Below are positions 1-60,200 of a stretch of 60,200 nt of DNA, piece after piece (the first letter of the stretch is position 1; every line of letters begins with the position of its first letter). The translations under genes were made by a program, and so were the position numbers. Location: IMG/VR virus record IMGVR_UViG_3300027759_000054. One strand, written 5' to 3'. This DNA comes from an uncultured virus (IMG/VR IMGVR_UViG_3300027759_000054). Lineage: Duplodnaviria > Heunggongvirae > Uroviricota > Caudoviricetes. The notes under the pieces are model-generated. The model did not search any database. It was given only the letters and a program-made list of their open reading frames with translations, and was not told where the DNA came from.

Positions 1-9
1 TATGGATAC

Positions 10-444
10 ATGAAGGGATCTGCTTATGCTGATGCAGAACTGCAAAGATTTGCTGCTAAGAATGCAACATTAACTGCAGACATGGAAAAGAAAAACTCTG
101 AGATCTCCACTGAAGTAGTGACTCAGTATGTTGATAGAACAAATACGATTAAGGAAAAAGAATATGTATATCGCGACATTGTCAAAGAAAGTGTTCCTAC
201 TCAGCATGTTATGTCTAACGGTTGGGTGTTCACGCACGACATTAGTGCCACAAGCAGTGATGCCGACGCCACCCGCACTTCTGATGCGTCCCCCTCTGGA
301 ATTACAGACACTACAGCCCTCCTCGCCATCATCGGAAACTACTCCAGATGCCAGCAAAATGCAGTCCAACTCACAGAACTCCAGCGCTGGATAAATGAGA
401 ATAAAACTGCGATCGACGAATTAAATAAGAAAGCGAAAAAGTAA
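10..444 (+). CDS. Rz-like i-spanin (probably 5'-truncated by the window edge)
   Basis: Coiled-coil-like ORF containing a nested lipoprotein ORF in the +1 frame; the reading frame is open back to base 1. Confidence 0.65.
   Translation: MKGSAYADAELQRFAAKNATLTADMEKKNSEISTEVVTQYVDRTNTIKEKEYVYRDIVKESVPTQHVMSNGWVFTHDISATSSDADATRTSDASPSGITDTTALLAIIGNYSRCQQNAVQLTELQRWINENKTAIDELNKKAKK
164..394 (+). CDS. Rz1-like o-spanin lipoprotein nested in Rz
   Basis: SD AAGGA at 151-155; signal peptide with lipobox LTVG-C; Pro-rich mature part (MPTPPALLMRPP). Confidence 0.7.
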   Translation: MYIATLSKKVFLLSMLCLTVGCSRTTLVPQAVMPTPPALLMRPPLELQTLQPSSPSSETTPDASKMQSNSQNSSAG

Positions 445-2720
445 TGGCAGAAAAAAAGTATATCGGTAAACCAGGAAAACAAGACGATCCTTGCTGGAAA
501 GGATATGAGATGGTAGGCATGAAGAAGAAGGGTGGACGTCAGGTTCCTAACTGTGTGCCCGAAGCAACCGATATTATTGCCAAAGCAAAGGCAGCAGTTG
601 CAAAAAAAGCAGGTGCCAAACTAAAGATGGATCCAGATACTGGAACACCTGACCATTTCACTGCTGCTCAAAGACGCAAGAAGGGTCTTGATGAAGCAAA
701 AAAAGAACACTATCCTAGAGAAGGATTCCCAGAAGAGGGTGACTATGGTTATCACCCAAATCCTGGTCTGAAACCACAGGAGAGCGATAGTGATGAAGAT
801 ATGGATGTTGCATACAAGAAAGCAACCGAGAAAGAGGGTCGCAAACCATTGAATGCAAAGATTATTGAGGGTGTGACCAATCCAGAAATCAAGAAAGCAT
901 ATGCTGATCTTATAAAAACTCCTAGTGGTTCTTCTGAACGTAAATCTGCCATCCGTCGTTACAAGAGTCTTCGTCAGAATGCTGTCAAAGAAGAAGTCGA
1001 AGGTAAGGTCTACTCTGTTCACGTCAAGGGTGATAGTAAGGATCACAACTCATCAGAGTTTAAAAAGCACCTAAAGGGTTGGGGCGGTGAATTACACTAC
1101 GCTTCTGATAAAGGCGCAGCGTATAAATTTAAGAAAGAGTATCAAGCGACTGGATTTCATCATGGTGTTAAATCTGGATTTAAAAGTCTTGATTCGGAAC
1201 ACGATGGTCAGGTCAAAGAAGAACTCGAAGAAGCATACGGCATGTGGAAGGTAGACTTCTCTAAGCAACATGCTGGTAAGGCAGTCGCTGCTGGTTCGGT
1301 TCACGTTAAGGCGCAGAACACTGCTCATGCTCACAAGGTTGCTGCTAAGAGAGTCGGTGTTGATCATAAGATGTTCAAGTCAACGGTTACCAAGTCAAGC
1401 ATTCTTCCAGAAGAAGCAGAACAACTTGACGAACTTTCTAAGAAGACCATCGCGTCGTATTCGGACAAAGCGTTCAAGTCTGATGTGCACCTGAATCGAG
1501 CACAAGACAGAAAGACATTGAAAAAGCAAACTAAACGCGAAAAAGGTATTAAGACTGCATATAATAAGTACTATGGTCGCAACGTAAAGGTCATGGCAAC
1601 TGAAGAACTCGGTAAGGACAACGAATGGGGAACTGATGCTCTCCGTAAGAAGTATGCTGCTATGACTCCTGGTCAAGAATCAATGGCAGCAGATAAGATC
1701 CCATCATTTGATCCACGTTACGACAATGTAACTACACAGTATTGTGGTGGCATCAGAGAAGGTTACTTGGCAGAGATCTCAGCAAGAGGTGCTGAAGCAC
1801 GTGCTAAGTTCCAAGCAAAAGTCAGACAAACACTGGCAGATCCTGCTAATATTAAAAGAGCAAAGAAAACTCTTGCGAAAAGAAAAGAAGCAGAAAAAGC
1901 AAAAGAACCAGCACATCTTGTAATGCAACTACGTAAAGCAGTAAGCATTGGTTCAAAGGTTCACTTCCAAGATGGCAGTCATCATGCTATTACGGGAAAT
2001 CATGCTGACATATTCATGTCGAAGTATAACTCCGCCAAGTCTTCTATCGAAAAAGAAGCACTACAGAAGCGTGCGCATAAATCTCACTCTGAGTTTATGA
2101 GAACAATCGCTGAGGATCACTCACCATATTGCGAACCAATGGATAACATGGGTGCAAATAATGTTGATTCCTATGAAGCACACAGAGGTTCGGGTGAACA
2201 GATCTCTCCAGTAATTTCACATGATGATGAAGACATTCGCTTCCAAGATTTTGATGAGACAGCATTCGAAAAAGAACTTGAAGCAGATGTTCTTGCTCTT
2301 TCGTGGGATGATATGGTAGATCTCTATGATGAAGATGAAATTGAATACGACGATTCACCTGAAGAAGAAGGTGAAGATCTAGAAGAAGGAATTACTCCTG
2401 CAGGTCGTCTCAAGAAAAGATTTAATGCGATGCGTTCTAAGAGTCGCCGCATGATGGCAAGAAATATTGCAATTAAACGTGTTTCTTCACCAGAAAAACT
2501 TAAATCGAGATCAATTCGTGCTGCTCGTCGTATGGTATACAAGAGACTGTTGCGTAACAGAGATATTTCGACAGTATCTTCATCTGAAAAAACACGTCTC
2601 GAAGCACAGATAAAGCGTATGGCACCAATGGTTGCTCGCCTATCTGTAAGAGTCATGCCAGCAGTTCGTAAACTGGAGCAATCCAGAATCAAGAACAGCA
2701 GAATGAGAAAGAGGAAGTAA
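444..2720 (+). CDS. Large head/internal protein with many prohead-protease-type (L/I/V-x-E) sites
   Basis: Modules PCWKGY..VPNCVPE and LDELSKKT..SY separated by LDE/LEE/IIE/VKE motifs; basic C-terminus. Confidence 0.6.
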   Translation: MAEKKYIGKPGKQDDPCWKGYEMVGMKKKGGRQVPNCVPEATDIIAKAKAAVAKKAGAKLKMDPDTGTPDHFTAAQRRKKGLDEAKKEHYPREGFPEEGDYGYHPNPGLKPQESDSDEDMDVAYKKATEKEGRKPLNAKIIEGVTNPEIKKAYADLIKTPSGSSERKSAIRRYKSLRQNAVKEEVEGKVYSVHVKGDSKDHNSSEFKKHLKGWGGELHYASDKGAAYKFKKEYQATGFHHGVKSGFKSLDSEHDGQVKEELEEAYGMWKVDFSKQHAGKAVAAGSVHVKAQNTAHAHKVAAKRVGVDHKMFKSTVTKSSILPEEAEQLDELSKKTIASYSDKAFKSDVHLNRAQDRKTLKKQTKREKGIKTAYNKYYGRNVKVMATEELGKDNEWGTDALRKKYAAMTPGQESMAADKIPSFDPRYDNVTTQYCGGIREGYLAEISARGAEARAKFQAKVRQTLADPANIKRAKKTLAKRKEAEKAKEPAHLVMQLRKAVSIGSKVHFQDGSHHAITGNHADIFMSKYNSAKSSIEKEALQKRAHKSHSEFMRTIAEDHSPYCEPMDNMGANNVDSYEAHRGSGEQISPVISHDDEDIRFQDFDETAFEKELEADVLALSWDDMVDLYDEDEIEYDDSPEEEGEDLEEGITPAGRLKKRFNAMRSKSRRMMARNIAIKRVSSPEKLKSRSIRAARRMVYKRLLRNRDISTVSSSEKTRLEAQIKRMAPMVARLSVRVMPAVRKLEQSRIKNSRMRKRK

Positions 2721-10029: not shown

Positions 10030-10034
10030 AAGCC

Positions 10035-10063
10035 TTTACTTTTCCCTCGTTTCGAGGTATAAC
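10035..10063 (+). promoter_or_regulatory. Sigma70-type promoter (primase)
   Basis: TTTACT-17-TATAAC. Confidence 0.55.
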
Positions 10064-12617: not shown

Positions 12618-13240
12618 CCCAATCTGGAAAAAAGTTTCAAAATTCTCAGGGCGAGATTTTTTCGCGGCCCAATTTTGAGTCCAAAAACCCGCACGAAACC
12701 GTTGTTGTTAAAGAAAATGACGACGGTGAATTATATATAGAACTCCCGCATGATCTATTGAAGACTCTTCGCTGGGATGAAGACACAGAACTGGTATGGT
12801 CCGAAAAAAACGATGGTTCTTGGGCATTAACAAAGAAAGAAGATATTATGAATAACCAAAAAGACGTTACCGAATTTATGGCATCTGCTGATCAGTATAT
12901 CGGAACAACACCGCACTTGAACGAGAAAAATGAGCAGCAAGCACGCCTATATATTGACCTGATAGATGAAGAATTTCGTGAACTATGCGACGGATTTCTT
13001 CGTCGCCATATCGGAGACATTGCTGACGGTGGCGCCGACCTAGTTTGGGTTGTCCAAGGATTGTTCATAACTCTTGGGATTGACTTTGACAAGGTATGGA
13101 AAGAAGTTCGTGCTTCTAACATGAGCAAGGTTTCTGATAATGGCAAGATTAAAAAGCGTGAAGATGGTAAGATTTTGAAACCAGAGTCTTACTTTAAACC
13201 AGATATTGAACGAGTATTGAAGGAACAGGGACTTAAATGA
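12614..13240 (+). CDS. AbrB-like domain fused to MazG/HisE-like NTP pyrophosphohydrolase
   Basis: GELYIELP..LL..LRW.E...L.W (AbrB-like); LIDEEFREL, DGGADL.WV, SNMSK, REDGKILKP; possible internal start at 12848. Confidence 0.75.
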   Translation: MTQSGKKFQNSQGEIFSRPNFESKNPHETVVVKENDDGELYIELPHDLLKTLRWDEDTELVWSEKNDGSWALTKKEDIMNNQKDVTEFMASADQYIGTTPHLNEKNEQQARLYIDLIDEEFRELCDGFLRRHIGDIADGGADLVWVVQGLFITLGIDFDKVWKEVRASNMSKVSDNGKIKKREDGKILKPESYFKPDIERVLKEQGLK

Positions 13241-15036
13241 AAAAAGAAACCTATCTGGGTATAGAAATAGATTATTCACGCGACTCTCTATTTGATAAAC
13301 TTGGTATCCAGCGACTAGAAGAATCATACATGCGAGAGGACGAAACTTCTCCGCAGCATAGATTCGCATATGTTTCTACTACTTTCGCATCAAATCTGGA
13401 GCATGCTCAGCGTTTATATGAGTATTCATCTAAGCATTGGTTGTCATATGCGACACCAATTCTTTCCTTTGGTCGTTCTAAGCGTGGAATGCCAATCAGT
13501 TGTTTTTTAAATTTCATTGATGACACAGCAGAAGGTTTAGTTGAGAATCTCAGCGAAACCAGTTGGTTGTCGATGCTTGGGGGTGGAGTTGGAATTGGTT
13601 TTGGAATCCGTGCTGCTGACGATAAGTCTACTGGCGTTATGCCACATCTTAAAACTTATGACGCAAGTTCCATGGCGTATCGTCAGGGTCGCACTCGTCG
13701 TGGCAGTTATGCCGCTTATCTTGACATTAGTCATCCTGACGTGGGTCAATTTCTTGAGATGCGTAAACCTACTGGTGACCCCAACATACGATGCCTCAAT
13801 CTACACCACGGAATCAACATTACAGATGACTTCATGGAAATCGTCCAACGATGCATGGCAGACCAAGACGCAGATGACAGTTGGAATCTGAAAGATCCAC
13901 ATTCTGGGGTAATTCGTGATACAGTTTCAGCGAAGGAACTCTGGCAGAAGATTCTAGAACTGCGTATGATGACTGGCGAACCATACCTGCACTTCATTGA
14001 TACATCAAATCGCATGATGCCGCAGTTCCAGAAAGATCTCGGTCTGAAAATTCATCAGTCGAATCTCTGTTCAGAAATCATTCTACCAACTGACAAGAAG
14101 CGTACTGCTGTTTGTTGTTTGTCTTCGGTCAATCTAGAATATTATGATGCGTGGTCCAAGGATCCGTTGTTCCTCAAGGACATGGCAGAGATGCTTGACA
14201 ATGTTCTGCAATACTTCATTGACAATGCTCCGAACACAGTAAAACGTGCCAAGTATGCGGCAATGCGTGAACGTTCCATTGGCATTGGTGCACTAGGTTT
14301 CCATGCTTATCTTCAGCGCAAGAGTATTGCATGGGAGTCGGCAGTTGCTAAGGGGACAAACATGCGCATGTTCAAACTAATCAAGCAACGTCTTGACGTG
14401 GCAAACCTAGAACTTGGTGCTGAACGTGGTGAAGCACCTGATGCTACAGGAACTGGTCGCCGATTCTCCCACACACAGGCAATCGCACCAAATGCATCTT
14501 CTTCAATCATCATGGGCAACACCAGTCCGTCGATTGAACCATGGCGAGCAAATGCATATCGTCAGGATACATTATCGGGTTCATTTCTCAATAAGAATAA
14601 ATACCTTGACTTTATTGTTAAAATAGAAGCAGCGAATCACAAGGATGGTTGGTATGATGAGACTTGGTCTTCGATTATCGCCAATGATGGTTCGGTGCAA
14701 CACCTTACGTGGATGGATGCAATTACCAAGGAAGTGTTCAAGACTTCAATGGAAATTGACCAACGGTGGGTTATTGAGCATGCGGCAGACAGGCAGAAGT
14801 TTATTGATCAGGCACAGTCTCTCAATCTATTCTTCCGCCCCGATGCGAATATCAAATATCTTCATGCTGTCCACTTCCTCGCATGGAAGCAGGGGTTGAA
14901 GACTTTATATTATTGTCGTTCAGAAAAAATAGGAAAAGCAGACAAGGTTTCTAAGCGCATTGAGCGCGAAGCAATTAAAGAGATTGACTTCAAGGCAATG
15001 ATCGACGGTGATAACTGTGTTGCATGCGAAGGATAA
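13237..15036 (+). CDS. nrdA: Ribonucleotide reductase class Ia alpha subunit (short, no ATP cone)
   Basis: SCF, SNLCSEI, AIAPNASSS, KTLYY and C-terminal CVAC. Confidence 0.96.
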   Translation: MKKETYLGIEIDYSRDSLFDKLGIQRLEESYMREDETSPQHRFAYVSTTFASNLEHAQRLYEYSSKHWLSYATPILSFGRSKRGMPISCFLNFIDDTAEGLVENLSETSWLSMLGGGVGIGFGIRAADDKSTGVMPHLKTYDASSMAYRQGRTRRGSYAAYLDISHPDVGQFLEMRKPTGDPNIRCLNLHHGINITDDFMEIVQRCMADQDADDSWNLKDPHSGVIRDTVSAKELWQKILELRMMTGEPYLHFIDTSNRMMPQFQKDLGLKIHQSNLCSEIILPTDKKRTAVCCLSSVNLEYYDAWSKDPLFLKDMAEMLDNVLQYFIDNAPNTVKRAKYAAMRERSIGIGALGFHAYLQRKSIAWESAVAKGTNMRMFKLIKQRLDVANLELGAERGEAPDATGTGRRFSHTQAIAPNASSSIIMGNTSPSIEPWRANAYRQDTLSGSFLNKNKYLDFIVKIEAANHKDGWYDETWSSIIANDGSVQHLTWMDAITKEVFKTSMEIDQRWVIEHAADRQKFIDQAQSLNLFFRPDANIKYLHAVHFLAWKQGLKTLYYCRSEKIGKADKVSKRIEREAIKEIDFKAMIDGDNCVACEG

Positions 15037-17117: not shown

Positions 17118-18064
17118 TGCTAACTGCACTTGCGATTACTGGTGTCGCTGGGTATTTTTCAATACTTGGGTTGATGGCAATTTTCCCAGCATCCCCGATC
17201 GCTGTTGCAGTGATGGGTGGTGTGCTTGAAGTCGCCAAACTCATTACTGCCAGTTGGGTATATCGTAACTGGAAAAGTGCCAACAAACTGTTGAAGACTT
17301 ACTTCACTATTGCAGTGTGTGTACTGTCATTTATTACAAGTATGGGCGTGTTCGGTTATCTCAGTCGATCGCACATTGAACACACTACTGTTGGTGGTTC
17401 AGCAGTATTTAAAATAGAACAACTCGAAAGCAAGAAGACATCTGCCGAAAGGAGACTCAAAAATGCACAAACATCGTTGGATACTCTGGACAGACTCACT
17501 ACTGCAGAGGATGTGCTCGATGCTAATTTCATTAGAAACCGACAGAAAAGAGAACGTGCGTCCCTTGATAATGAAATTAAGAGTGCGACTGCAGACATTG
17601 AGACTATTGAGACTGATCTCATACCGCTCAAAACAGAAAATCTCAAACTCGAAGCAGAAGTAGGTCCGATAAAATACATCGCAGAACTGTTTTATGGTAG
17701 TGGTGATACTGCTACTATCGATAAAGCAGTGCGTCTGATGATTATCATGCTTATATTCGTGTTCGACCCACTAGCAATTTTATTAATTATTGCTGCCAAT
17801 ATGACACTTTTAAGCTTGACAAAGAAGGAAGAATCAGGTATAGTAGACTATGTCGTTGTTGATGAGAGTAAACCAAAGAAGGTTGTTCAGACTACTAAGA
17901 ACTCTAAGAAGAAACCTGTTGTTGAAACACCAGACTTCTTTGCGTTCGAGAAACATGAGAATAAATCTCTTTCAACGCATGACATACCAGCGCCAGATCC
18001 TCCGAGGAGATCCTGGAGAGATGGTAAAATTATTATTGATGAAAACAATATAAGGAAAATGTGA
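17096..18064 (+). CDS. Membrane-anchored coiled-coil protein
   Basis: Three N-terminal TMs, coiled coil, EVGPIKYIAE and FVFDPLA motifs. Confidence 0.7.
   Translation: MFFAALLMLTALAITGVAGYFSILGLMAIFPASPIAVAVMGGVLEVAKLITASWVYRNWKSANKLLKTYFTIAVCVLSFITSMGVFGYLSRSHIEHTTVGGSAVFKIEQLESKKTSAERRLKNAQTSLDTLDRLTTAEDVLDANFIRNRQKRERASLDNEIKSATADIETIETDLIPLKTENLKLEAEVGPIKYIAELFYGSGDTATIDKAVRLMIIMLIFVFDPLAILLIIAANMTLLSLTKKEESGIVDYVVVDESKPKKVVQTTKNSKKKPVVETPDFFAFEKHENKSLSTHDIPAPDPPRRSWRDGKIIIDENNIRKM
17816..17844 (+). promoter_or_regulatory. Intragenic sigma70-type promoter
   Basis: GC-TTGACA-17-TATAGT. Confidence 0.55.
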
Positions 18065-18321: not shown

Positions 18322-18324
18322 GGC

Positions 18325-18353
18325 TTGTCTTTTCCCACAAATTATAGTATAGT
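18325..18353 (+). promoter_or_regulatory. Early promoter cassette
   Basis: TTTAGGGC-TTGTCT-17-TATAGT. Confidence 0.6.
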
Positions 18354-22531: not shown

Positions 22532-22556
22532 TTTAAAAAAAAAATAATTTAGGGGC

Positions 22557-22604
22557 TTGACATTTTCGCATTTTCGAGGTATAGTGGTATTATAGTTTGA
22601 AAGG
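22557..22604 (+). promoter_or_regulatory. Early promoter cassette with conserved leader
   Basis: TTTAGGGGC-TTGACA-17-TATAGT, then TATAGTTTGAAAGG. Confidence 0.85.
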
Positions 22605-23196: not shown

Positions 23197-23272
<76 letters not shown>

Positions 23273-23280
23273 GTTTTTAT

Positions 23281-23355
23281 TCCCTAATGGCGCAGCGGTA
23301 GCGCAGTTGACTGTTAATCAATTGGTCGGTGGTTCGAATCCATCTTAGGGAGCCA
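23281..23355 (+). tRNA. tRNA-Asn(GTT)
   Basis: Cloverleaf, loop CTGTTAA, CCA. Confidence 0.95.
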
Positions 23356-23361
23356 GTTTAT

Positions 23362-40701: not shown

Positions 40702-40726
40702 CGTTTATCCCATAATATAGTATTAT
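40698..40726 (+). promoter_or_regulatory. Early promoter
   Basis: GGC-TTGACG-17-TATTAT. Confidence 0.65.
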
Positions 40727-41970: not shown

Positions 41971-42014
41971 CTTTTGTTGCGTTTTAGGGTATAATGATAT
42001 TATAGTTTGAAAGG
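41967..42014 (+). promoter_or_regulatory. Early promoter cassette with conserved leader
   Basis: GGGGC-TTGACT-17-TATAAT, then TATAGTTTGAAAGG. Confidence 0.85.
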
Positions 42015-48081: not shown

Positions 48082-48093
48082 ATGAAAAAAGGC

Positions 48094-48122
48094 TTGACAA
48101 TTGTTCTGTTTCGAGGTATAAT
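48094..48122 (+). promoter_or_regulatory. Early promoter
   Basis: GGC-TTGACA-17-TATAAT. Confidence 0.85.
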
Positions 48123-48322: not shown

Positions 48323-48326
48323 GGGC

Positions 48327-48355
48327 TTGCTATTTGTGACGTTTTAGGGTATATT
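48327..48355 (+). promoter_or_regulatory. Early promoter cassette
   Basis: AATTTAGGGGC-TTGCTA-17-TATATT. Confidence 0.7.
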
Positions 48356-48659: not shown

Positions 48660-48871
48660 TGATGAATGTTGAACAACAAGTCCTTGATGGTCTCGCGAAG
48701 GCACCTGATGCCTTTGACTACATCTATGATTGTATCTCTGCAACCCATGGGTGGGTGATCCATGATTATGTATCGGCGCTCTATAATGAAGCAGCGCATG
48801 ACCATGGGTTCGCTCCTGATGATGACTTCGAAGAAATAATTAATCGCATCCTTGATGATTTAGGGGCTTGA
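48659..48871 (+). CDS. Hypothetical early protein
   Basis: Acidic coupled ORF. Confidence 0.6.
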   Translation: MMNVEQQVLDGLAKAPDAFDYIYDCISATHGWVIHDYVSALYNEAAHDHGFAPDDDFEEIINRILDDLGA

Positions 48872-48896
48872 CATTATTGTAAAAATAGGGTATAGT
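48868..48896 (+). promoter_or_regulatory. Early promoter cassette
   Basis: TTTAGGGGC-TTGACA-17-TATAGT. Confidence 0.85.
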
Positions 48897-49175: not shown

Positions 49176-49950
49176 TATGGACATGATCGGTTTTGATAAT
49201 GAATTCATGAGTGATCCATGCACTCACTCGAAGATCCTCCTCCCAATCCCTGAGAATGTTCGTGATGTTCCCTGTGGTGGATGTGCTCGTGAGAATGAAT
49301 GTGCTGCTCGTATGACTGAGTGTGTCGCCTTTCGGGTATGGTCTGCCACTGGTGACTTCCTTGATGAGGATGTCTCTCGATTGATGCGTGTCCCTCGATG
49401 GGTTTGATTGCCGTGTAGGGAGTAGTTGTACCTCTGTAGCATCTGAGCTATGGTTTTGTAAAAAAGGTACCCCTCCCCCATCTCGGGTTTAACGCTGACT
49501 TGCTTTAACATCGTGCGACATACCTTTACACATACCCCTACACAGGGAAAGGATTCCAAACATGCCAAGAAAAAAAATCGGGGCCGGAAAAAATGGATCT
49601 CCAGGGGTCGCAGAGCAATTGGTCGCACAGGATGTGGCAACCTACTATGAGTATACTGCACCTGATGCTACAGTTGTGCTGCTCAATCGTTATGAGTGGA
49701 CACGAGGTCTTGGCATCACTGATAAGAATGTAAAGAAAGCACAAGCAGCGAGGCATCGTGAGGTTGCCAAGGGGTTTGCCACCGTGGAGCAAGCATGATG
49801 AAAGTAAAGAAGATAATACGGAAACTGTATCAAGCAATCATTAACCATGATGAAAAGAAAGAAAAAAAGTTATGGTTAAAGGCATTGAAAAAGTCATTGA
49901 AACACAAACACACTCAGGTGATTAAATAATAGGGTTGTTAAATTAGGGGC

Positions 49951-49979
49951 TTGACTTTTATCTCATTTTAGGGTATACT
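49951..49979 (+). promoter_or_regulatory. Early promoter cassette
   Basis: TTAGGGGC-TTGACT-17-TATACT. Confidence 0.85.
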
Positions 49980-53048: not shown

Positions 53049-53052
53049 GGGC

Positions 53053-53100
53053 TTGACTTTTGTTCGTTTTTAGGGTATAGTGGTACTATAGTTTGAAAGG
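53053..53100 (+). promoter_or_regulatory. Early promoter cassette with conserved leader
   Basis: TAGGGGC-TTGACT-17-TATAGT; TATAGTTTGAAAGG at 53087. Confidence 0.85.
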
Positions 53101-53652: not shown

Positions 53653-54993
53653 ATGGTTAAAATTATTGTTGCAGATTCTAAATTACAGTGCGAGCATCTG
53701 TTAGGACAGTATCTAGATGAGAGTCATTATGATACTCTTATTGAGGAAGACACTGACTGCTACATGGAATCATTATTCGGCACTGAGAGTCGTGGTAATG
53801 AAGATCGCATTGCGTTTAAGTTTCGCAAGAACTGGTTCTCTAAAGAAGAACAAGATCAGGCATATGTCGGATTGCGGGAAGCAGCAACAGAATCGCAGAA
53901 TCGTGGACAGGCAGCAGGTCCACGTGGCGAGATGCTTGGCGTAGAGGGTCGAGGTGGACGTGATTGGGTAACTGATTATGAATTAGAAGTTCTCGACTTC
54001 CTCATGGATACTAGCGGTAAACTGATAGATGATGTCACCATTGCTAGTATCCGCGCCAAGTATGCGGGTGCACCTCGTTCGAGTTCAGATGAGACTCGTG
54101 GTTCAGTCTGGTTGCGCAGTAAGGTATGTGAGCAATATCCAGAGTATTTCGGTTGGTTCGATAAGTGGGTCGATAGTCTAGACGGTAAGTCAGAGGAAGA
54201 AATCGTAAATGCAGCAAAAACTGTCGCGACTAAGTGGGTATCGTCGACCAACTATGCGAAGTCGGTTTTCTCAGGTGTTGCTGGATGGTATGACCGTTAT
54301 CCTAGGATTCCTTTTGGTCGTGCTACTACCTATACTCGCGATAACTTTGATAAGTTTAAGTTGTCCTTTCCTTTTCTACAGTCTTTGGACCGTGGTTTCA
54401 AAGAACTACTACCCGCACGGTGGTCAAACCAAAAGAAGGCAGCAGGAAAAATCGACCCGAAGTTCGTTGTTCCCGATACCGTATTCACCACCATCACTGT
54501 CAACAAGTCCTTCCGAACAGCAGCGCATCGCGACGCTGGTGATTTTGCTGATGGTCTCAGCAATCTTCTGGTCGTTGGTAGCGGTGACTATACTGGCGGT
54601 TATCTAGTATTCCCCGAGTATCGTATCGCAGTGAATGTGCGTCCAGGTGACTTGTTGCTTGTGAGCAATCATGAGATTATTCATGGCAACACTGAGATTA
54701 AACTGACTCGTCCAGATGCTGAACGTATTTCGTTGGTTTGTTATCTTCGCGAGAACATGCTAGATCTTGGTTCATTTGATTATGAAACAACTCGTGAGCA
54801 GTATGTGATTGACCGCAGAATGAACAAAGAACATAAGCATCATCGTCCACTTTGGAATGGCGTATCGCCAGGAATGTGGGATGAGCAAGAATGGTATGAC
54901 TACCTTGAAACTAAACTCGGACGAGATACAGTTGCCAAGTATCATCCCAAAGCATGCGCAGAGAGTTCGTCGCTGGAGGATTTGTTCGGATGA
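53653..54993 (+). CDS. TET/JBP-family 2OG-Fe(II) nucleic-acid base dioxygenase
   Basis: FTTITVNKSFRTAAHRDAGD, GGYLVFPEY..AV..RPGDLLL..HE.IHGNT, RISLVCYLRE. Confidence 0.85.
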   Translation: MVKIIVADSKLQCEHLLGQYLDESHYDTLIEEDTDCYMESLFGTESRGNEDRIAFKFRKNWFSKEEQDQAYVGLREAATESQNRGQAAGPRGEMLGVEGRGGRDWVTDYELEVLDFLMDTSGKLIDDVTIASIRAKYAGAPRSSSDETRGSVWLRSKVCEQYPEYFGWFDKWVDSLDGKSEEEIVNAAKTVATKWVSSTNYAKSVFSGVAGWYDRYPRIPFGRATTYTRDNFDKFKLSFPFLQSLDRGFKELLPARWSNQKKAAGKIDPKFVVPDTVFTTITVNKSFRTAAHRDAGDFADGLSNLLVVGSGDYTGGYLVFPEYRIAVNVRPGDLLLVSNHEIIHGNTEIKLTRPDAERISLVCYLRENMLDLGSFDYETTREQYVIDRRMNKEHKHHRPLWNGVSPGMWDEQEWYDYLETKLGRDTVAKYHPKACAESSSLEDLFG

Positions 54994-55883
54994 AGGTTTT
55001 AGTTACTGGCGCGACAGGATATATCGGGTCGCATGTTGTTCGTATTTTAAAAGACCGTGGATATATCGTCCACGGTCTAGATGCGCATAATGTTCATGAC
55101 GAACTTAATGCAGATATTATGGATGTGTGTGATAAGTTCTTTGAGATTGATGTGTTAGATACTACCGCAATTACTACCGAAGTTACTGGTGTATATGATG
55201 CAGTAGTCCATCTCGCAGGTTTGTCTACTGTTGAGAAGTCTATGAAGATTCCATATGAGTATTTCAATGTCAATGTCACAGGAACTAAAAACATTCTTGA
55301 CTTCGTTGACGCCAAACATGTAATCTTCGCTGGTTCTAGTTCTTCGTTTGAGAATGCTTCTCCGTATGCAGTTTCCAAAACTGCTGCTGAACAAGTCATT
55401 CGTGCACAGGAAAAGATGGGGTGGACAATCTTCCGTTTCTTTAATGTCTCAGGGTCAGATGGTGCTCATCGTCAACTTGGTGCAGCGACACACTTGATTC
55501 GTGTTATTGCAGAAGTTGCAACAGGTAAGCGAGATATCTTAAAAGTATTCGGTAATGATTACGAGACTCGTGATGGAACTTGTATTCGTGATTACATTCA
55601 TGTCGTGGATCTGGCAGAAGCAATCGTTAATGCTGCTGAACAAGGTCCACTAAATACTGAGTACGAAGAACTTGGTTCCTGTCATGGGTGGACAGTTCTC
55701 GAGGTGATTGCTGCATTCGAAGAAGCAACATCAAAAACAATCAATTATGAAATTGCTGCACGTAGACCTGGAGATGCAGTAGCATGTAAGGTTGAAACTC
55801 CATCTCAACGACTTACGCTTAATAAAACAATTTATGATATGTGCTTAGACCAATATAATCTTGAACGTGGGAGAAACAAATAA
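54990..55883 (+). CDS. galE: UDP-glucose 4-epimerase
   Basis: TGATGYIGSH, YAVSK, RFFNV, THLI, T.DGTCIRDYIHV.DLA, RRPGD. Confidence 0.9.
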   Translation: MKVLVTGATGYIGSHVVRILKDRGYIVHGLDAHNVHDELNADIMDVCDKFFEIDVLDTTAITTEVTGVYDAVVHLAGLSTVEKSMKIPYEYFNVNVTGTKNILDFVDAKHVIFAGSSSSFENASPYAVSKTAAEQVIRAQEKMGWTIFRFFNVSGSDGAHRQLGAATHLIRVIAEVATGKRDILKVFGNDYETRDGTCIRDYIHVVDLAEAIVNAAEQGPLNTEYEELGSCHGWTVLEVIAAFEEATSKTINYEIAARRPGDAVACKVETPSQRLTLNKTIYDMCLDQYNLERGRNK

Positions 55884-55884
55884 T

Positions 55885-56910
55885 ATGAAGAAAATACTAG
55901 TAACTGGTTTTACTCGAGCAGCATGCACTGATAACTTCCATCAAAAATCTCAAATTAGTCTTTGCACTGCACACTATAGTTTTGTAGAATCTCTGCGCGA
56001 CATGGGATGGCAGGTTGAGCAACGTCCTGTAACAGCAGGTGAAGATTTATCTGGGTATGATAAAGTTGTTGTGTTTATCATGCACATCTCTCCATTCAAT
56101 ACTTACATGTATGGTGCACTGTGGGCAATCAGTCAACGACCTGATGCGTATCTAGCGATCGAAGATTGGCAGTCTCCCAAGAACATTAATACTTGGGGAA
56201 AAGATATTGACAAGATTGTAGATTCAGTAACTAATGATTACTACATCAATAATGTCGTAGCAGAAAAAGAACTTCGTCCTGAGTGGAAGTCTGCGTTCAA
56301 GGATGCCTTCTCAATTATTGCTGCTGGTGATAGACCAATTACGTTACCTGCGCATCTAGGTGGTGACTATAAGATGCTCTTTCCTAATTGGAAAGAAGAC
56401 AAAGTGCATTCTTGGTTTGCTCCAGCATATACTCTCCATCGTTATCCGAATGTTTTGTTCCCAGAACCGAAAAAGCGTATTTTCAACTTTGCTGGTTTGA
56501 TCCAGAGCGAAACTGAAAATTGGTTTAACAAGGTGACTAAGGATGCTACTTGGCAGATTATGCAGTATGGTTCTAAGAGCAAGAAGCAGATTCGTTTGAC
56601 AGAAGAAGAAATGGTTACTGTATTCAATGAGCAGTGGGGTATTCTGATGGCAGGATATTGGCATGCTGGATCTGGTTGGTGGCGCGCACGTCCGCAGCAG
56701 GTTGCTGATGTTGGATCTATTCTTATCTGCGAAGACAAAGAAGGCGCAGTATTTGGCGAACCTTATGTTGGTCTGTCATGTGCAAAACTTGAAGGTATGA
56801 CCGAAGAGCAACTCGAACGTCTTGCTGCCGATCAGAAGGAAGCATATTATACTTCACAACCAATGGACAAGAGTATAACACGTCGTCAAATTGAGGAATA
56901 CTTGGCATGA
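55885..56910 (+). CDS. GT-B glycosyltransferase resembling T4 DNA beta-glucosyltransferase
   Basis: RDMGWQVE and DLSGYDKVVV echo T4 BGT SEMGLNVD and DVNDYDRLIVV (from memory); C-terminal WWRAR.QQ...GSILI matches the GT-B donor-binding region. Confidence 0.6.
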   Translation: MKKILVTGFTRAACTDNFHQKSQISLCTAHYSFVESLRDMGWQVEQRPVTAGEDLSGYDKVVVFIMHISPFNTYMYGALWAISQRPDAYLAIEDWQSPKNINTWGKDIDKIVDSVTNDYYINNVVAEKELRPEWKSAFKDAFSIIAAGDRPITLPAHLGGDYKMLFPNWKEDKVHSWFAPAYTLHRYPNVLFPEPKKRIFNFAGLIQSETENWFNKVTKDATWQIMQYGSKSKKQIRLTEEEMVTVFNEQWGILMAGYWHAGSGWWRARPQQVADVGSILICEDKEGAVFGEPYVGLSCAKLEGMTEEQLERLAADQKEAYYTSQPMDKSITRRQIEEYLA

Positions 56911-57911
56911 AGTTTTTAATAGTTGGCGCAGGGTTCGCGGGTGGAGTATACGCTCGCGAACTTGCTGAAGCAGGACATACTGTTGATGTCATTGACTCCC
57001 GTGATCACATAGCAGGCAATGCATATGATTATGTGAACGAAGATGGTATCCGAGTCCACAAGTATGGACCACATATTTTTCATACCTCAAACACGAAGGT
57101 AGTTGATTGGTTAAGTAAATTTACCGATTGGGTAGAGCACGAGCATAAGGTTCTTGCCAAGCATACCGATGGTGACTTCTACGTTCTTCCGCCGAATCGA
57201 GATACAGTTGCGCGCATCGGTAAAGAAAATATTATTGATGTATTCTTTCGACCGTATACAAAGAAGATGTGGGAAAAAGAAATCGAAGAACTTAATCCCA
57301 AGATTCTTGAACGAGTTCCCATTCGCGACGACGATAATGAATTGTATTTCCCGAATGATGATTTCCAGAAAATGCCAGTAGATGGTTATACTGCTTTATT
57401 CGAGAGTATTTTTGACCATGAAAACATTACTGTGAAACTTGATTGCTTATTTGATAAGTCTATGGAGAATGAATATGATCATGTCTTCAATAGTATGCCT
57501 ATCGATCAGTATTATGATTATGAATTTGGTGAATTGCCATATCGCAGTATCAAGTTTAAAACTGTTACGCTACCCGAACGGCAGATGTATAAAGCAGCAA
57601 CAACGAACTTCACGACATATGATGGTCCGACGCGAGTAACTGAGTGGAAAAACTTTCCTAACCATGGTGTTAATCATCTTGCGACAACTCTGACTTATGA
57701 GTATCCTTGTGATTATAAAGATAACAACATGGAACGGTATTATCCAGTCAAGGATATCGAGGGTGTCAATGCGGATATCTATGAGAAGTATCTAACAAAG
57801 GATAATTCCAAAGTATCATTCATTGGGCGTTGTGGTACGTATCAATATCTAGACATGCATCAGGTTATTAATCAATCCCTAATTTCAGTGAAAAAATTTC
57901 TAGATAATTAA
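56907..57911 (+). CDS. glf: UDP-galactopyranose mutase
   Basis: VGAGFAG, HIAGNAYD, HKYGPHIFHT, YTKKMW, LPYRS, YYPV, GR.GTY.YLDMHQ. Confidence 0.95.
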   Translation: MKFLIVGAGFAGGVYARELAEAGHTVDVIDSRDHIAGNAYDYVNEDGIRVHKYGPHIFHTSNTKVVDWLSKFTDWVEHEHKVLAKHTDGDFYVLPPNRDTVARIGKENIIDVFFRPYTKKMWEKEIEELNPKILERVPIRDDDNELYFPNDDFQKMPVDGYTALFESIFDHENITVKLDCLFDKSMENEYDHVFNSMPIDQYYDYEFGELPYRSIKFKTVTLPERQMYKAATTNFTTYDGPTRVTEWKNFPNHGVNHLATTLTYEYPCDYKDNNMERYYPVKDIEGVNADIYEKYLTKDNSKVSFIGRCGTYQYLDMHQVINQSLISVKKFLDN

Positions 57912-57918
57912 AAATCTA

Positions 57919-57947
57919 TTTACTTTTCCGTCAAATTATAGTATAAG
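57919..57947 (+). promoter_or_regulatory. Sigma70-type promoter
   Basis: TTTACT-17-TATAAG. Confidence 0.45.
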
Positions 57948-58003
57948 AGTAATTGTAGTTGAGAACTACGCTAATCTTAAAAAATCCTGAACGGAGAAAC
58001 ATT

Positions 58004-59287
58004 ATGAAGAATACAATAGTAAATATGTCGCGTCGAAATATCATTCGCTTGATGCGGCATGGAAAACTTAATCCAAATCCAATCGGACAACGTCCGCCAA
58101 TTCCTTCTAAAAAGAAACCAGTCGAAATTATCAACTCAATGATTGATGGTTTCTTTACTGGCGCAATTATATTGCGCGATATCCGCAACGACCCAGAAGG
58201 ACAAGCAACATATCCAGGGCAAGAATATCTTGTGATCGATGGTGGTAATCGAACACGTGCAATGCGTGCTTTCGAGGAAAGCACCTTGATGTCAAAATAT
58301 GGAACTATTGCGGAAATTAATTCGGATGAATTCCTTGATCGAGAAGAAACTGTTGTTCTTTATGAATGTACTGCTGCTGAAGCGACACAAATTTTCCGCA
58401 CCGTTAACACTGTAACTGAAGTAAACGAGATCGAAATGATCATGGCGAATGAAGATTCTCGTGTCGCTAAGTTTATTCGGACGATGACACAGATGTATCC
58501 TGAATATAAGAACACCGTTCACGATCTATTCCAGTGGCGGATAAAGCAAGGTACTACGGATCTGCGGGTCGCTACTTATTTTTCCTCGCAGCACGTTAAT
58601 CCTCGCCGCGAATGGGACGAACTTGTTGGTGTCGTTTTGACTAAGTGCCTCAATGGTATGAAGAACGTCGATGCAGGTTATCCTGTAATTGGTAAACTCG
58701 TCGATGAAGATCTTCCCCTGAGCGACACTGTGAAGAGCAAGGTAAAGGCAACTTTGGACGCAGCGTTAAAGACTTTGAAATTTGCCAAGAGCAAGAAGTT
58801 CTCTAAGGTTACGTTTGGTGTATTTCAAATGGTTTACTTCGAACTGATGGGGCAGGGTGCTCGAATCATTGACTTTGATGAATTTTCTCGTCGCTTGTGG
58901 GCGGCGAATGCTAAGTTAGACAATAAGTATGCTAATGACGACAATAGCATTATGTCTGTGAAGAAGGCATTCGGTAAGGGGAATGTTCAGAGCGCACTCG
59001 CTAAGGAATACATCGAGGAAATGGGCGATCTTACCAGCGTAGTTAATTTCTCTGCCCGTTCTGCGACACTTAATCAGAAGTATACCGATCTTGCCTTAAA
59101 GGATTTTCTGAGTGCTGATGGTGATATCCTGGAATATGATGATGCTGAATGGTCGCACATTACACCACATGCTGAGGGCGGTACCGAAGCAACGATGGAA
59201 CGTAAAGAAATTAATCATTTGAATCTGACAATGGAAGAGCAAATGTTGATTCTTCAAATGCGCAATAAACAGGTAACTGCTGCATAA
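58004..59287 (+). CDS. DUF262/ParB-Srx-like protein with a degenerate C-terminal HNH-like motif (GmrSD-like architecture)
   Basis: P.GQR, II.SM..G, VIDGGNR, IF..VN; HITPHAEGGT. Confidence 0.7.
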   Translation: MKNTIVNMSRRNIIRLMRHGKLNPNPIGQRPPIPSKKKPVEIINSMIDGFFTGAIILRDIRNDPEGQATYPGQEYLVIDGGNRTRAMRAFEESTLMSKYGTIAEINSDEFLDREETVVLYECTAAEATQIFRTVNTVTEVNEIEMIMANEDSRVAKFIRTMTQMYPEYKNTVHDLFQWRIKQGTTDLRVATYFSSQHVNPRREWDELVGVVLTKCLNGMKNVDAGYPVIGKLVDEDLPLSDTVKSKVKATLDAALKTLKFAKSKKFSKVTFGVFQMVYFELMGQGARIIDFDEFSRRLWAANAKLDNKYANDDNSIMSVKKAFGKGNVQSALAKEYIEEMGDLTSVVNFSARSATLNQKYTDLALKDFLSADGDILEYDDAEWSHITPHAEGGTEATMERKEINHLNLTMEEQMLILQMRNKQVTAA

Positions 59288-59288
59288 T

Positions 59289-60200
59289 ATGATACTAGAA
59301 AAAACAGATGCTGAATACATTGGTCGTCGATTTATAGATTATATGTCAAATTATAATCGTATCGACGACCACATGCGCATGAAAAAACTTGAGAGACTGA
59401 AAACTCTTCCCACCACACTTCCAGGTTATGAACCAGAGAATATGTTGTTCTCTGATTTTAGCATGCACCCAGAAGATATGGAACTTGAGATCTTTGAACC
59501 AACTGCTAGTGAGTTCTCAACTATGGTGGAGATTACTTCTTCATTCTGTAACGAAAACTCTTTCGGTAAAGAAATTAAGTTTATCGTTCGTGAAAAGAAC
59601 AGTGGTAAGTATGTTGGTTTCTGTCGCGTCGCAAGTCCATTCATTAATTCTAGACCAAGGAATGAATGGTTCGGGCAAGTCCCCGATCTAAAGAGATTTA
59701 ACAAACATGCAGTTATGGGATTCATTATTGTTCCTACACAACCATTCGGGTTCAATTATCTCGGCGGTAAACTGCTTGCGCTTCTTTGTGCATCTCATGA
59801 ATTTCGTGAAATGTTCAATAAGAAGTATGATATGGAAACTTGTCTCTTTGAAACGACATCATTATACGGAAATATCAAGCAAACATCGCAGTATGATGGT
59901 CTGAAACCATTTTTGCGGTACACTGGTGACACTGTTAGCAATTTTCTTCTTTCATTCTCCGATGATTTTTGGTTTGAGACCCTAAATTGGTTTGCAAGCA
60001 AAAATAATGGCGAACCTTTGTTCGGCAGAGAAGGTATTGCGTCGTATAAGATGAAAATGCAAAATAAAATGATGTCAATTATCAAAAATTCGCTAAAATT
60101 TCACAATTCTAGCGAACTTTTGGCATTTTCAACCGCAATTCAGGCGAACAAAGACGTTACAACGCAAAAAAGATTTTATATTTCGACTTATGGGTACGAA
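59289..60200 (+). CDS. DUF4338/DruA-like protein (3'-truncated; not in the ORF track)
   Basis: Open frame from ATG 59289: IVPTQPFGFNYLGGKLLA, ETTSLYG, SQYDG. Confidence 0.75.
   Translation, partial: MILEKTDAEYIGRRFIDYMSNYNRIDDHMRMKKLERLKTLPTTLPGYEPENMLFSDFSMHPEDMELEIFEPTASEFSTMVEITSSFCNENSFGKEIKFIVREKNSGKYVGFCRVASPFINSRPRNEWFGQVPDLKRFNKHAVMGFIIVPTQPFGFNYLGGKLLALLCASHEFREMFNKKYDMETCLFETTSLYGNIKQTSQYDGLKPFLRYTGDTVSNFLLSFSDDFWFETLNWFASKNNGEPLFGREGIASYKMKMQNKMMSIIKNSLKFHNSSELLAFSTAIQANKDVTTQKRFYISTYGYE

What the first reader, a model, noticed from the sequence alone, without database searches (positions are those of the whole stretch)
1..60200. Strong depletion of RGCY (AGCT/AGCC/GGCT/GGCC), with survivors clustered at early promoters
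Seen by eye: I found no RGCY in the 1.8-kb nrdA gene, although RGCR, YGCY and TGCA are frequent (GAAGCA is used rather than GAAGCT), and only about ten GGCC sites in the whole window. Yet 13 sigma70 promoters carry RGCY abutting the -35 (GGCTTG at 11 of them; AGCT at 17813; AGCC at 10031). Established: phage C5-MT/TET pairs with GpC-centred specificity have been reported. Inference: RGCY may be the target context of the modification system, eroded by 5mC deamination or by selection, or it may be the site of a CviJI-like host restriction enzyme. Retention at promoters could allow modification-dependent control of early transcription.
Basis: partly seen in the sequence, partly recalled or inferred. 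Interest (0 to 1): 0.72.

Follow-up and report, generated by a model that had tools for sequence, protein, structure and literature searches.

The report
Phage genome purged of RGCY sites
This uncultured T4-like phage has removed almost every copy of the four-letter DNA word RGCY (and CCGG, partly GTAC) from its genes by silent codon changes, most likely to escape DNA-cutting enzymes of its unknown host and not because of its own DNA-modification genes.

Summary
RGCY occurs 62 times in 60.2 kb against about 320 expected. In coding sequence it occurs 27 times against 424 expected from synonymous-codon shuffles. CCGG and GTAC are depleted too. Survivors sit in tRNA genes (20), directly 5' of the -35 of a repeated sigma70-type promoter cassette (13), and elsewhere (29).

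All three reading frames are purged equally, by whichever silent change is available, so this is selection against the word, not 5mC decay. A sister phage with 90.7% identical NrdA has 17 RGCY sites in nrdA; the window has none.

The link to a C5-MT/TET pair fails:
- No cytosine-5 methyltransferase is found in the window or in 10 of 10 related contigs.
- In a close relative the TET gene sits with a kinase and an amino-acid:DNA transferase, which is thymine-hypermodification machinery.
- 67 of 67 more distant TET-bearing relatives are not comparably depleted. They avoid other palindromes instead (GGCC, AGCT, CCGG, GATC).

The best reading is lineage-specific restriction-site avoidance, implying a CviJI-like RGCY specificity in an unknown host. 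The promoter sites are best explained by constraint on a conserved G-rich box. A regulatory role is untested.

The parts
1..60200 (.). Window-wide depletion of RGCY (62 sites, about 1.03 per kb), CCGG (5 sites) and GTAC (71 sites)
   Evidence: The sister genome G006, of the same G+C content, has 8.1 RGCY per kb.
13237..15036 (+). nrdA (ribonucleotide reductase large subunit) with no RGCY site
   Evidence: Pfam. No site between 12666 and 16462. The G006 orthologue, 90.7% identical in protein, has 17 sites.
23197..27961 (+). Cluster of 22 tRNA genes holding 20 of the 62 surviving RGCY sites, mostly the AGCTCAG D-arm and acceptor or T-arm positions
   Evidence: ARAGORN; site list; class count.
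10031..10063 (+). Promoter upstream of the primase gene. AGCC abuts a TTTAC -35 variant.
17813..17844 (+). Promoter inside ORF 17084-18064, AGCTTGAC...TATAGT
   Evidence: The RGCY is conserved in G001.
18322..18353 (+). Promoter cassette, GGGCTTGTC...TATAGT
   Evidence: G001 has AGCT at this position.
22554..22585 (+). Promoter cassette, GGGGCTTGAC...TATAGT
26432..26463 (+). Promoter cassette, GGGCTTGAC...TATAGT, within the tRNA region
35854..35885 (+). Promoter cassette, GGGGCTTGAC...TAGAAT
   Evidence: Conserved in G001.
40695..40726 (+). Promoter, AAAAAGGCTTGAC...TATTAT
41964..41995 (+). Promoter cassette, GGGGCTTGAC...TATAAT
48091..48122 (+). Promoter, AAAAAAGGCTTGAC...TATAAT
48324..48355 (+). 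Promoter cassette, GGGGCTTGCT...TATATT
48865..48896 (+). Promoter cassette, GGGGCTTGAC...TATAGT
49948..49979 (+). Promoter cassette, GGGGCTTGAC...TATACT
53050..53081 (+). Promoter cassette, GGGGCTTGAC...TATAGT, upstream of the 160-aa ORF and the TET gene
   Evidence: Conserved in G001.
53653..54993 (+). TET/JBP-family dioxygenase (446 aa), inferred to oxidise thymine and not 5mC
   Evidence: PF12851 at 2.9e-23. The orthologue in G001 is 76% identical and sits with GATase, ADDT and P-loop kinase. No C5-MT was found.
54954..59287 (+). Tailoring module after the TET: NAD-dependent sugar epimerase (54954-55883), unknown 349 aa (55861-56910), UDP-galactopyranose mutase (56907-57911), unknown 442 aa (57959-59287)
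   Evidence: Three of the four ORFs have no counterpart in G001 and the epimerase matches only at 28%. G001 has the kinase/transferase module here instead, yet shows the same RGCY depletion.

Best explanation
RGCY, CCGG and, more weakly, GTAC are under-represented because this phage lineage has been selected to lose recognition sites of host restriction systems. For RGCY this implies a CviJI-like degenerate specificity in the still unknown host or hosts.

Shown: the word itself is selected against at the DNA level, by silent changes in every reading frame. It is a property of one clade of uncultured T4-like (Kyanoviridae-like) phages. Close relatives avoid other short palindromes instead.

Inferred: the agent is a host endonuclease. 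Sites persist where sequence is constrained, namely tRNA genes and a conserved G-rich box (GGGGC) immediately 5' of the -35 TTGAC of a repeated sigma70-type promoter/leader cassette. A residue of about 0.5 per kb remains in genes, part conserved and part turning over.

The phage's TET cassette is a separate, thymine-directed hypermodification system and does not define the RGCY context.
For: (1) Strength and specificity. The four RGCY words, CCGG and GTAC are the six lowest of 256 tetramers. Against codon shuffles, RGCY in CDS is 27 vs 424. Per word: AGCT 0.05, GGCT 0.06, AGCC 0.12, GGCC 0.14, CCGG 0.03, GTAC 0.36, GATC 1.02.

(2) Frame-independent silent avoidance.
- O/E is 0.056, 0.052 and 0.075 in the three frames.
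- Ala GCY after an R-ending codon: 15 of 387, vs 443 of 793 after a Y-ending codon.
- Ser AGC before Y: 3 of 373, vs 102 of 662 before R.
- Gly GGC before Y: 2 of 366, vs 141 of 651 before R.
- Lys/Glu/Gln G-ending codons before a CY codon: 1 of 243, vs 1221 of 2701 otherwise.
- Leu CTN after an RG-ending codon: 1 of 67, vs 872 of 1189 otherwise.

(3) Orthologue contrast. In 24 genes at least 70% identical in protein to sister genome G006 (13.7 kb aligned), the window has 6 RGCY and G006 has 144. The 106 single-position disruptions fall on all four positions (12, 29, 29, 36).

(4) Clade-limited, mosaic pattern.
- 13 of 80 TET-bearing loci (TET identity 76-96%) have O/E 0.07-0.22. The other 67 have 0.49-0.99 and avoid GGCC+CCGG, or AGCT+GGCC with AGCC/GGCT not depleted, or GATC.
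- Among 63 primase-matched loci, 35 of 39 with at least 84% identity are depleted.
- 23 of 24 at 56-79% identity are not. The 77% sister clade avoids GATC and GTAC instead.
- L136 is RGCY-depleted without CCGG depletion, so the pressures are separable.

(5) The depletion is genome-wide in a 150-kb relative and is the same in sub-clades with different tailoring modules after the TET: sugar enzymes in the window, kinase plus amino-acid:DNA transferase in G001 and G004.

(6) RGCY is an established restriction specificity: CviJI (PMC3681635, passages). RGCY was the most frequent methylated motif in marine viral MAGs (9 V-MAGs, shared among 'Myoviridae-like' genomes; bioRxiv 10.1101/2021.05.08.442635, passages). 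This shows that aquatic myoviruses meet pressure on this word.
Against: - The host is unknown, and no RGCY-specific bacterial enzyme was identified here. As far as I recall, CviJI-type enzymes are known only from chlorella viruses; REBASE was not available.
- About one site per kb remains, so a frequent cutter would still find many targets.
- In the nearest contrast the depleted clade has the TET and the non-depleted sister G006 (171.6 kb, rated 100% complete) lacks it. A link to the TET cassette is therefore not excluded by that pair alone.
- I could not find a depleted relative that demonstrably lacks the TET. Contigs without it do not cover the locus.
- The clade that purges RGCY is the one whose promoters carry GGCTTGAC: RGC before the -35 in 13 of 17 aligned promoters (11 of 22 regex hits) in the window and in 13 of 42 regex hits in G001, against 2 of 23 in G006. 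This is odd for a harmful word.
- GGCC is somewhat less depleted than AGCT (0.14 vs 0.05 in the window; 0.21 vs 0.08 in G001).
Confidence: 0.68

Rival explanations
1. Avoidance of methylation-dependent (Type IV, McrBC-like) restriction. A host RGCY cytosine methyltransferase marks phage DNA, and the marked G-mC sites are then attacked in other hosts, so losing the word removes the mark.
For: This gives the same sequence signature as classical avoidance. RGCY methylation is common in aquatic viral genomes. From recall, McrBC recognises R-mC, which G-mC in RGCY satisfies.
Against: No host methylome or Type IV system could be examined. The co-depleted CCGG and GTAC are ordinary Type II sites. This is a variant of the host-driven reading, not an alternative to it.
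Confidence: 0.1
2. A phage-borne activity recognises RGCY. It could be a nuclease used against host DNA, or a step of the TET-dependent hypermodification. The genome would then be purged of the word except at promoter cassettes, where the site has a regulatory role.
For: In the one nearest contrast, depletion co-occurs with the TET cassette. RGC before the -35 is enriched in the depleted clade. 36 of 157 G001 ORFs, many of unknown function, have no counterpart in the sister genome.
Against: - 67 of 67 TET-bearing loci outside the clade are not comparably depleted.
- GGCC contains no thymine, yet is depleted.
- The recognisable nucleases of G001 (TnsA-like, PD-(D/E)XK, SNase) are shared with the non-depleted sister.
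- The genes after the TET differ between depleted sub-clades.
- Promoters of the same family lack RGCY in 4 of 17 cases in the window and in 29 of 42 regex hits in G001.
- About 130-150 residual sites per genome would be self-targets.
Confidence: 0.1
3. One reading: RGCY is the context of a phage C5-methyltransferase/TET pair and was eroded by 5mC deamination.
For: Phage C5-MTs partnered with TETs favour GpC[C/T] (PMC8256090, passages). RGCY is that context on both strands. G>A and C>T make up 46 of 106 single-position disruptions.
Against: - No PF00145 in the window's ORFs or in 10 of 10 contigs of the clade. No N6/N4 methyltransferase in G001.
- The TET context is thymine-type. Only about 6% of phage 5mYOX pathways co-occur with a C5-MT (PMC13229309, section 12).
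- YGCY, also a GCY context, is raised, not depleted.
- The Ala-GCY frame is purged as strongly as the others, by Y-to-R transversions.
- Phage Melnitz, which has an annotated C5-MT next to a TET-like ORF, shows only mild values (0.61, 0.59, 1.31).
Confidence: 0.03
4. Compositional or codon-usage artefact, or neutral mutation bias.
For: None beyond the general fact that tetramer O/E values depend on the null model.
Against: Two nulls agree (Markov-2, codon shuffle). A sister genome of identical G+C (0.42), with 85-93% identical orthologues among the five genes tabulated, carries 8 times more sites. The strong context-dependent codon choice cannot come from codon bias.
Confidence: 0.01

Closest known systems
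Restriction-site (short palindrome) avoidance in bacteriophage genomes (recalled literature: Sharp 1986; Rocha et al. 2001; Rusinov et al. 2018; recalled examples are GATC-free staphylococcal phages and GGCC-poor Bacillus phages)
   Same: Strong under-representation of 4-bp Type II-like sites, achieved by synonymous changes. It is lineage-specific and differs between related phages.
   Different: The avoided word is the degenerate RGCY, including the non-palindromic pair AGCC/GGCT, together with CCGG and GTAC. I found no report of RGCY avoidance in the listings (listings only). The cognate host system is unknown.
R.CviJI / M.CviJI of chlorella virus IL-3A (recognition RGCY; PMC3681635, passages)
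   Same: The same four-word specificity as the purged set.
   Different: CviJI is virus-encoded in a eukaryotic alga. Here the enzyme is only inferred, would be bacterial, and no homologue was sought because no reference sequence was available to me.
Phage C5-MT/TET (5mC dioxygenase) hypermodification cassettes (Burke et al. 2021, PMC8256090)
   Same: A TET/JBP-family gene followed by tailoring enzymes. The GpC[C/T] preference of those methyltransferases overlaps RGCY.
   Different: No C5-MT here. The TET's relatives sit with thymine-hypermodification genes. Depletion does not follow the TET.
Phage thymine dioxygenase (5mYOX) pathways with kinase, GATase and amino-acid:DNA transferase or glycosyltransferases (O'Toole et al. 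2026, PMC13229309, abstract and sections 5, 8, 12)
   Same: TET without a neighbouring C5-MT. GATase, ADDT and P-loop kinase lie next to the orthologue in G001. Sugar enzymes lie next to it in the window.
   Different: No ParB-like partner was detected by Pfam, NCBIfam or PDB sequence search of the upstream 160-aa ORF. Activity and sequence preference are untested. This concerns the neighbouring cassette, not the depletion.
Repeated early-promoter cassettes of T4-type phages (PeSL elements; recalled, Arbiol et al. 2010)
   Same: Many copies of a promoter plus leader about 60-70 nt long, conserved well beyond the -35 and -10, in the region of small ORFs.
   Different: The cassette here has a GGGGC box 5' of TTGAC. 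No stem-loop was examined, and a mobile or recombinational role was not tested.

Membership tests
Restriction-site avoidance | Site count far below a composition- and codon-corrected expectation | tested here: met
   RGCY 27 vs 424 in CDS; CCGG 1 vs 64; GTAC 51 vs 145.
Restriction-site avoidance | Avoidance acts on the DNA word irrespective of reading frame, through synonymous choices | tested here: met
   O/E 0.052-0.075 in all three frames; context-dependent codon use; disruptions at all four positions.
Restriction-site avoidance | The pattern is lineage- or host-specific and differs among related phages | tested here: met
   the sister clade avoids GATC and GTAC; others avoid GGCC+CCGG or AGCT+GGCC; Melnitz avoids CGCG, GATC and CCGG.
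Restriction-site avoidance | The host carries a restriction system of that specificity | not testable with these tools
   Host unknown. No whole genome is held for the window. The closest cultured relatives are only 67-70% identical in the major capsid protein.
Phage C5-MT/TET pair (Burke 2021) | TET/JBP dioxygenase gene | tested here: met
   PF12851 at 2.9e-23, residues 240-367 of ORF 53653-54993.
Phage C5-MT/TET pair (Burke 2021) | Functionally associated cytosine-5 DNA methyltransferase in the same genome, usually adjacent | tested here: not met
   No PF00145 among the window's scanned ORFs. 0 of 10 TET-bearing contigs of the clade have it; the same search rang in 9 of 14 control genomes. 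The window covers only part of its genome.
Phage C5-MT/TET pair (Burke 2021) | 5mC/5hmC-derived bases in a GpC context in virion DNA | not testable with these tools
   Needs LC-MS or modification-aware sequencing.
Phage thymine-dioxygenase hypermodification pathway (O'Toole 2026) | 5mYOX without a neighbouring C5-MT, linked to a P-loop kinase, GATase and amino-acid:DNA transferase, or to glycosyltransferases | tested here: met
   G001: TET next to GATase_6, ADDT (PF18724) and Ploopntkinase3 (PF18751). ADDT is also in G004. The window has an epimerase and a UDP-galactopyranose mutase after the TET.
Phage thymine-dioxygenase hypermodification pathway (O'Toole 2026) | Oxidation of T to 5hmU on DNA | not testable with these tools
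   Enzymatic assay or nucleoside analysis is required.
CviJI-type R-M system | An endonuclease or methyltransferase gene with RGCY specificity | not tested
   No reference sequence or family model was available, and the host genome is unknown.

The most novel reading that the evidence does not exclude
RGCY may be a word that the phage itself reads. A clade-specific activity, either tied to the thymine-hypermodification cassette or an unrecognised nuclease or DNA-binding factor, would act at RGCY. The genome would then have been cleared of the word everywhere except tRNAs and the GGGGCTTGAC early-promoter cassettes, where the site serves as a switch for early transcription or host-versus-self discrimination. 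The less radical novel reading is that an uncultured aquatic bacterium carries the first bacterial CviJI-type (RGCY) restriction system.
Probability: 0.1. Interest if true: 0.8.

Novelty: new member of a known kind. Interest (0 to 1): 0.38.

Why it matters
The purge is unusually clean: 16-fold in genes, with codon choice dictated by the neighbouring codon. It comes with a natural control, a sister genome with near-identical proteins and normal RGCY content.

This makes it a sharp genomic footprint of a restriction specificity (RGCY) that, as far as I recall, has been characterised only in chlorella viruses. It predicts what to look for in the unknown host.

It also shows that a thymine-hypermodifying phage still has to shed cytosine-centred sites, and that related phages solve different restriction repertoires with different avoided words.

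For annotation practice, it warns against reading a TET gene as evidence for a C5-MT/5mC system.

Tried and rejected
- Near-identity search of 20 kb against cultured phages found no match.
- The PF12851 family search over five records rang nowhere, not even in the controls, so it was uninformative. I replaced it with a protein query using G001 as a positive control.
- I looked for a depleted relative lacking the TET. G010 does not cover the locus and G016 ends 958 nt past the neighbouring gene.
- I looked for a ParB-like partner or any assignment for the 160-aa ORF upstream of the TET. Pfam, NCBIfam and PDB sequence search gave nothing.
- Flanking bases of surviving sites show no extended motif.
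- Local RGCY density in L128, L111, L091 and L136 shows no clear recently imported island.
- Two literature searches on CviJI were swamped by surname matches.
- C-to-T decay was rejected as the cause.
- Structure prediction, complex prediction, read mapping, the large protein databases and the genome-contig scan were not used. None would have identified the host enzyme.

Full report
**What the window is.** The window is 60.2 kb with 41.7% G+C, and almost all long ORFs lie on the + strand. It encodes:
- T4-type replication and nucleotide-metabolism proteins: gp61-like primase, NrdA/NrdB, ThyX, a MazG-like pyrophosphatase, RNase H;
- an endolysin and tail-related proteins;
- 22 tRNA genes at 23197-27961;
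- a TET/JBP dioxygenase at 53653-54993.

The TET is followed by a sugar epimerase, an unknown ORF, a UDP-galactopyranose mutase and another unknown ORF. No cultured phage is close at the DNA level. The primase is at most 39% identical to cultured phages. The major capsid protein of a close relative is 69.7% identical to Methylophilales phage Melnitz and 67-68% to Pelagibacter myophages. This is an uncultured aquatic T4-like (Kyanoviridae-like) phage.

**The observation.** By a Markov order-2 expectation, the six most under-represented of all 256 tetramers are:
- CCGG: 5/49, O/E 0.10
- AGCT: 18/124, O/E 0.14
- GGCT: 19/93, O/E 0.20
- AGCC: 14/58, O/E 0.24
- GGCC: 11/43, O/E 0.25
- GTAC: 71/175, O/E 0.41

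The next lowest is TGCA at 0.66, and RGCR and YGCY words are raised. I also shuffled synonymous codons across 83 + strand ORFs (50.9 kb, 300 shuffles). Against that null, RGCY is 27 observed vs 424 +/- 15 (z = -27), CCGG 1 vs 64, GTAC 51 vs 145, and GATC 247 vs 233.

No site lies between 12666 and 16462, so none in nrdA or nrdB. There are 11 GGCC sites. GGCTTG stands at 11 promoters, plus AGCT at 17813 and AGCC at 10031. Of the 62 sites, 20 lie in tRNA genes, 13 abut a -35 and 29 lie elsewhere.

**Selection, not decay.** The three reading frames are purged alike, with O/E of 0.056, 0.052 and 0.075. Codon choice depends on the neighbouring codon:
- Ala GCT/GCC after a purine-ending codon: 15 of 387, vs 443 of 793 after a pyrimidine-ending one.
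- Ser AGC before a pyrimidine: 3 of 373, vs 102 of 662 before a purine.
- Gly GGC before a pyrimidine: 2 of 366, vs 141 of 651 before a purine.
- Lys/Glu/Gln G-ending codons before a CY codon: 1 of 243, vs 1221 of 2701 otherwise.
- Leu CTN after an RG-ending codon: 1 of 67, vs 872 of 1189 otherwise.

A natural control exists. Sister genome G006 (171.6 kb, rated 100% complete, G+C 0.42) has 8.1 RGCY per kb, against 1.03 in the window and 0.91 in relative G001. In 24 orthologous genes at least 70% identical in protein (13.7 kb aligned), the window has 6 sites and G006 has 144. For nrdA the counts are 0 vs 17 at 90.7% protein identity.

Where one position breaks the word, all four positions are used (12, 29, 29 and 36 cases). 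Of these 106 cases, 48 are R/Y transversions at the outer positions, which cytosine deamination cannot make. Survivors are partly constrained and partly turning over: 15 of 25 alignable window sites are also RGCY in G001, and G001 has 18 sites at aligned positions where the window has none. Flanking bases show no longer motif.

**Who shares the depletion.** Among the 80 loci kept from 238 matches to the TET protein, 13 have RGCY O/E of 0.07-0.22, with CCGG near zero and GTAC at 0.08-0.64 (TET identity 76-96%). The other 67 (TET identity 69% or less) have 0.49-0.99 and avoid other words: GGCC+CCGG; AGCT+GGCC+CCGG with AGCC/GGCT at 1.2-1.6; or GATC in L051. Stenotrophomonas phage DLP6 lacks only GGCC (0/116).

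Among 63 primase-matched loci, 35 of 39 with at least 84% identity are depleted. The exceptions are three GATC-avoiding loci that hold only the end of the primase gene, and one 4.5-kb locus. Of 24 loci at 56-79% identity, 23 are not depleted. The 77% sister clade avoids GATC (0.17-0.48, apart from L123 at 0.78) and GTAC. L137 avoids only AGCT and L145 only GGCC. L136 is RGCY-depleted (0.21) but not CCGG-depleted (0.70).

The depletion is genome-wide in G001: CCGG 0.06, AGCT 0.16, AGCC/GGCT 0.17, GGCC 0.33, GTAC 0.45. Codon shuffles confirm it there and show its absence in G006. This shifting set of short Type II-like words among close relatives is the known signature of restriction-site avoidance. 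That literature is recalled, not read here.

**The modification system.** The premise that phage C5-MTs paired with TETs favour GpC[C/T] is right (PMC8256090, passages). This phage does not fit that system:
- No cytosine-5 methyltransferase is found in the window's ORFs.
- None is found in 10 of 10 TET-bearing contigs of the depleted clade, one of them 150 kb and rated 92% complete. The same search rang in 9 of 14 control genomes.
- G001 has no N6/N4 methyltransferase either (150 of its 157 ORFs of at least 90 aa were scanned, and 7 that cross fetch boundaries were not).
- In G001 the 76%-identical TET is followed by a glutamine amidotransferase, unknown ORFs, an amino-acid:DNA transferase (PF18724), a P-loop nucleotide kinase (PF18751) and a DruA-like ORF.

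O'Toole et al. link this machinery to thymine dioxygenases. They also report that only about 6% of phage 5mYOX pathways co-occur with a C5-MT (PMC13229309, abstract and sections 5, 8, 12).

The window's own module after the TET is sugar-directed. Three of its four ORFs have no counterpart in G001, and the epimerase matches only at 28%. ADDT occurs in G004 but not in four window-like contigs. Two sub-clades with different tailoring chemistry therefore share the same purge. Phage Melnitz does carry an annotated C5-MT next to a TET-like ORF. It avoids CGCG, GATC and CCGG, and its RGCY words are only 0.61, 0.59 and 1.31.

**A caveat on the TET.** The 100%-complete sister genome that is not depleted also lacks the TET. 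I could not find a depleted genome that demonstrably lacks it. In this single contrast TET and purge coincide.

**Promoters.** The 13 sites belong to a repeated cassette with the consensus tttaGGGGC-TTGAC-N18-TATAgT-ggtattatagtttgaaaggaaat.
- Four promoters of the same family lack RGCY: 23023, 37298, 45673 and 53572.
- In G001, 13 of 42 regex hits have RGC before the -35. Others have GTG or CTA there.
- In G006 only 2 of 23 do.
- More distant relatives often have YGC or other triplets.

The G-rich box is thus a preferred but dispensable promoter element, and it is peculiar to the depleted clade. Constraint, or spread of a cassette by recombination, explains its survival most simply. Why the purging clade favours it is unexplained. 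A modification-dependent switch is neither supported nor excluded.

**Mechanism proposed.** Each RGCY, CCGG or GTAC site is a chance for a host endonuclease to cut incoming DNA. Each lost site raises the chance of escape, so selection acts site by site until only constrained sequence and a mutational residue remain. The site-by-site selection on the word is shown by the data. The endonuclease is inferred.

RGCY is the CviJI specificity (PMC3681635, passages). RGCY was the most common methylated motif in marine viral MAGs, shared among myovirus-like genomes (bioRxiv 10.1101/2021.05.08.442635, passages). This suggests that other aquatic myoviruses meet the same pressure by methylation. A Type IV variant, in which the phage avoids a host-imposed G-mC mark, is not separable with these data.

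**Novelty.** This is a new, very clean instance of a known phenomenon, with an unusual degenerate target. A full-text search for 'RGCY' (34 papers, 30 listed) and one for 'restriction site avoidance' (12 listed) showed no report of RGCY avoidance in phages. I read only the listings and the passages cited above.

Noticed in passing
window 54954-59287 versus L084:8134-14534 (G001): The tailoring module after the orthologous TET gene is swapped between close relatives. The window has an epimerase, an unknown ORF, a UDP-galactopyranose mutase and another unknown ORF. G001 has a GATase, unknown ORFs, an amino-acid:DNA transferase, a P-loop kinase and a DruA-like ORF. This suggests different thymine hypermodifications, sugar versus amino-acid type, on one genomic backbone.
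   Followed up: partly
window 22537-53113 (17 sites aligned): A repeated promoter-plus-leader cassette of about 60-70 nt, conserved far beyond the -35 and -10 and including the downstream 'TATAGTTTGAAAGGAAAT' leader/RBS. It is reminiscent of the early-promoter cassettes of T4-type phages (recalled).
   Followed up: partly
L116-L131, L141, L126 and G006 (L155-L163): The sister clade (primase about 77% identical, several core proteins 85-93% identical to the window) lacks the TET. It avoids GATC (0.17-0.48 in all but L123, 0.78) and GTAC (0.19-0.43) but not AGCC/GGCT. The window clade does not avoid GATC (O/E 1.02 in CDS).
   Followed up: yes
L136 (17-kb contig, primase 71% identical): This locus is RGCY-depleted (0.21) but not CCGG-depleted (0.70), showing that the two avoidances are separable.
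   Followed up: no
L164 (Melnitz, MZ577097.1) 4010-6194: The closest cultured relative has an annotated HhaI-like C5 methyltransferase directly upstream of an ORF with weak TET similarity, placed after the DNA polymerase. Its genome piece has 0 CGCG (17 expected), 4 GATC (186 expected) and 3 CCGG (17 expected).
   Followed up: partly
window 28313-35823: A block of a GT2 glycosyltransferase, a Coq4-like ORF, a radical-SAM ORF, an AMP-binding enzyme and a QueC-like ORF. G001 carries several radical-SAM/SPASM ORFs, a carbamoyltransferase and a TauD-like dioxygenase. The role is unknown; it could be a second modification or metabolite pathway.
   Followed up: no
window 22028-22531 and 25629-26345: ORFs with NUMOD3 and GIY-YIG/NUMOD3 domains (homing-endonuclease-like) lie beside and inside the tRNA cluster. 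The second has no counterpart in G001 or G006.
   Followed up: no
window 9562-10029, 6840-7202, 27999-28316: Some ORFs are closer to the non-depleted sister G006 than to the depleted relative G001 (84 vs 70%, 70 vs 57%, 77 vs 45%). This indicates mosaic ancestry between the lineages.
   Followed up: no
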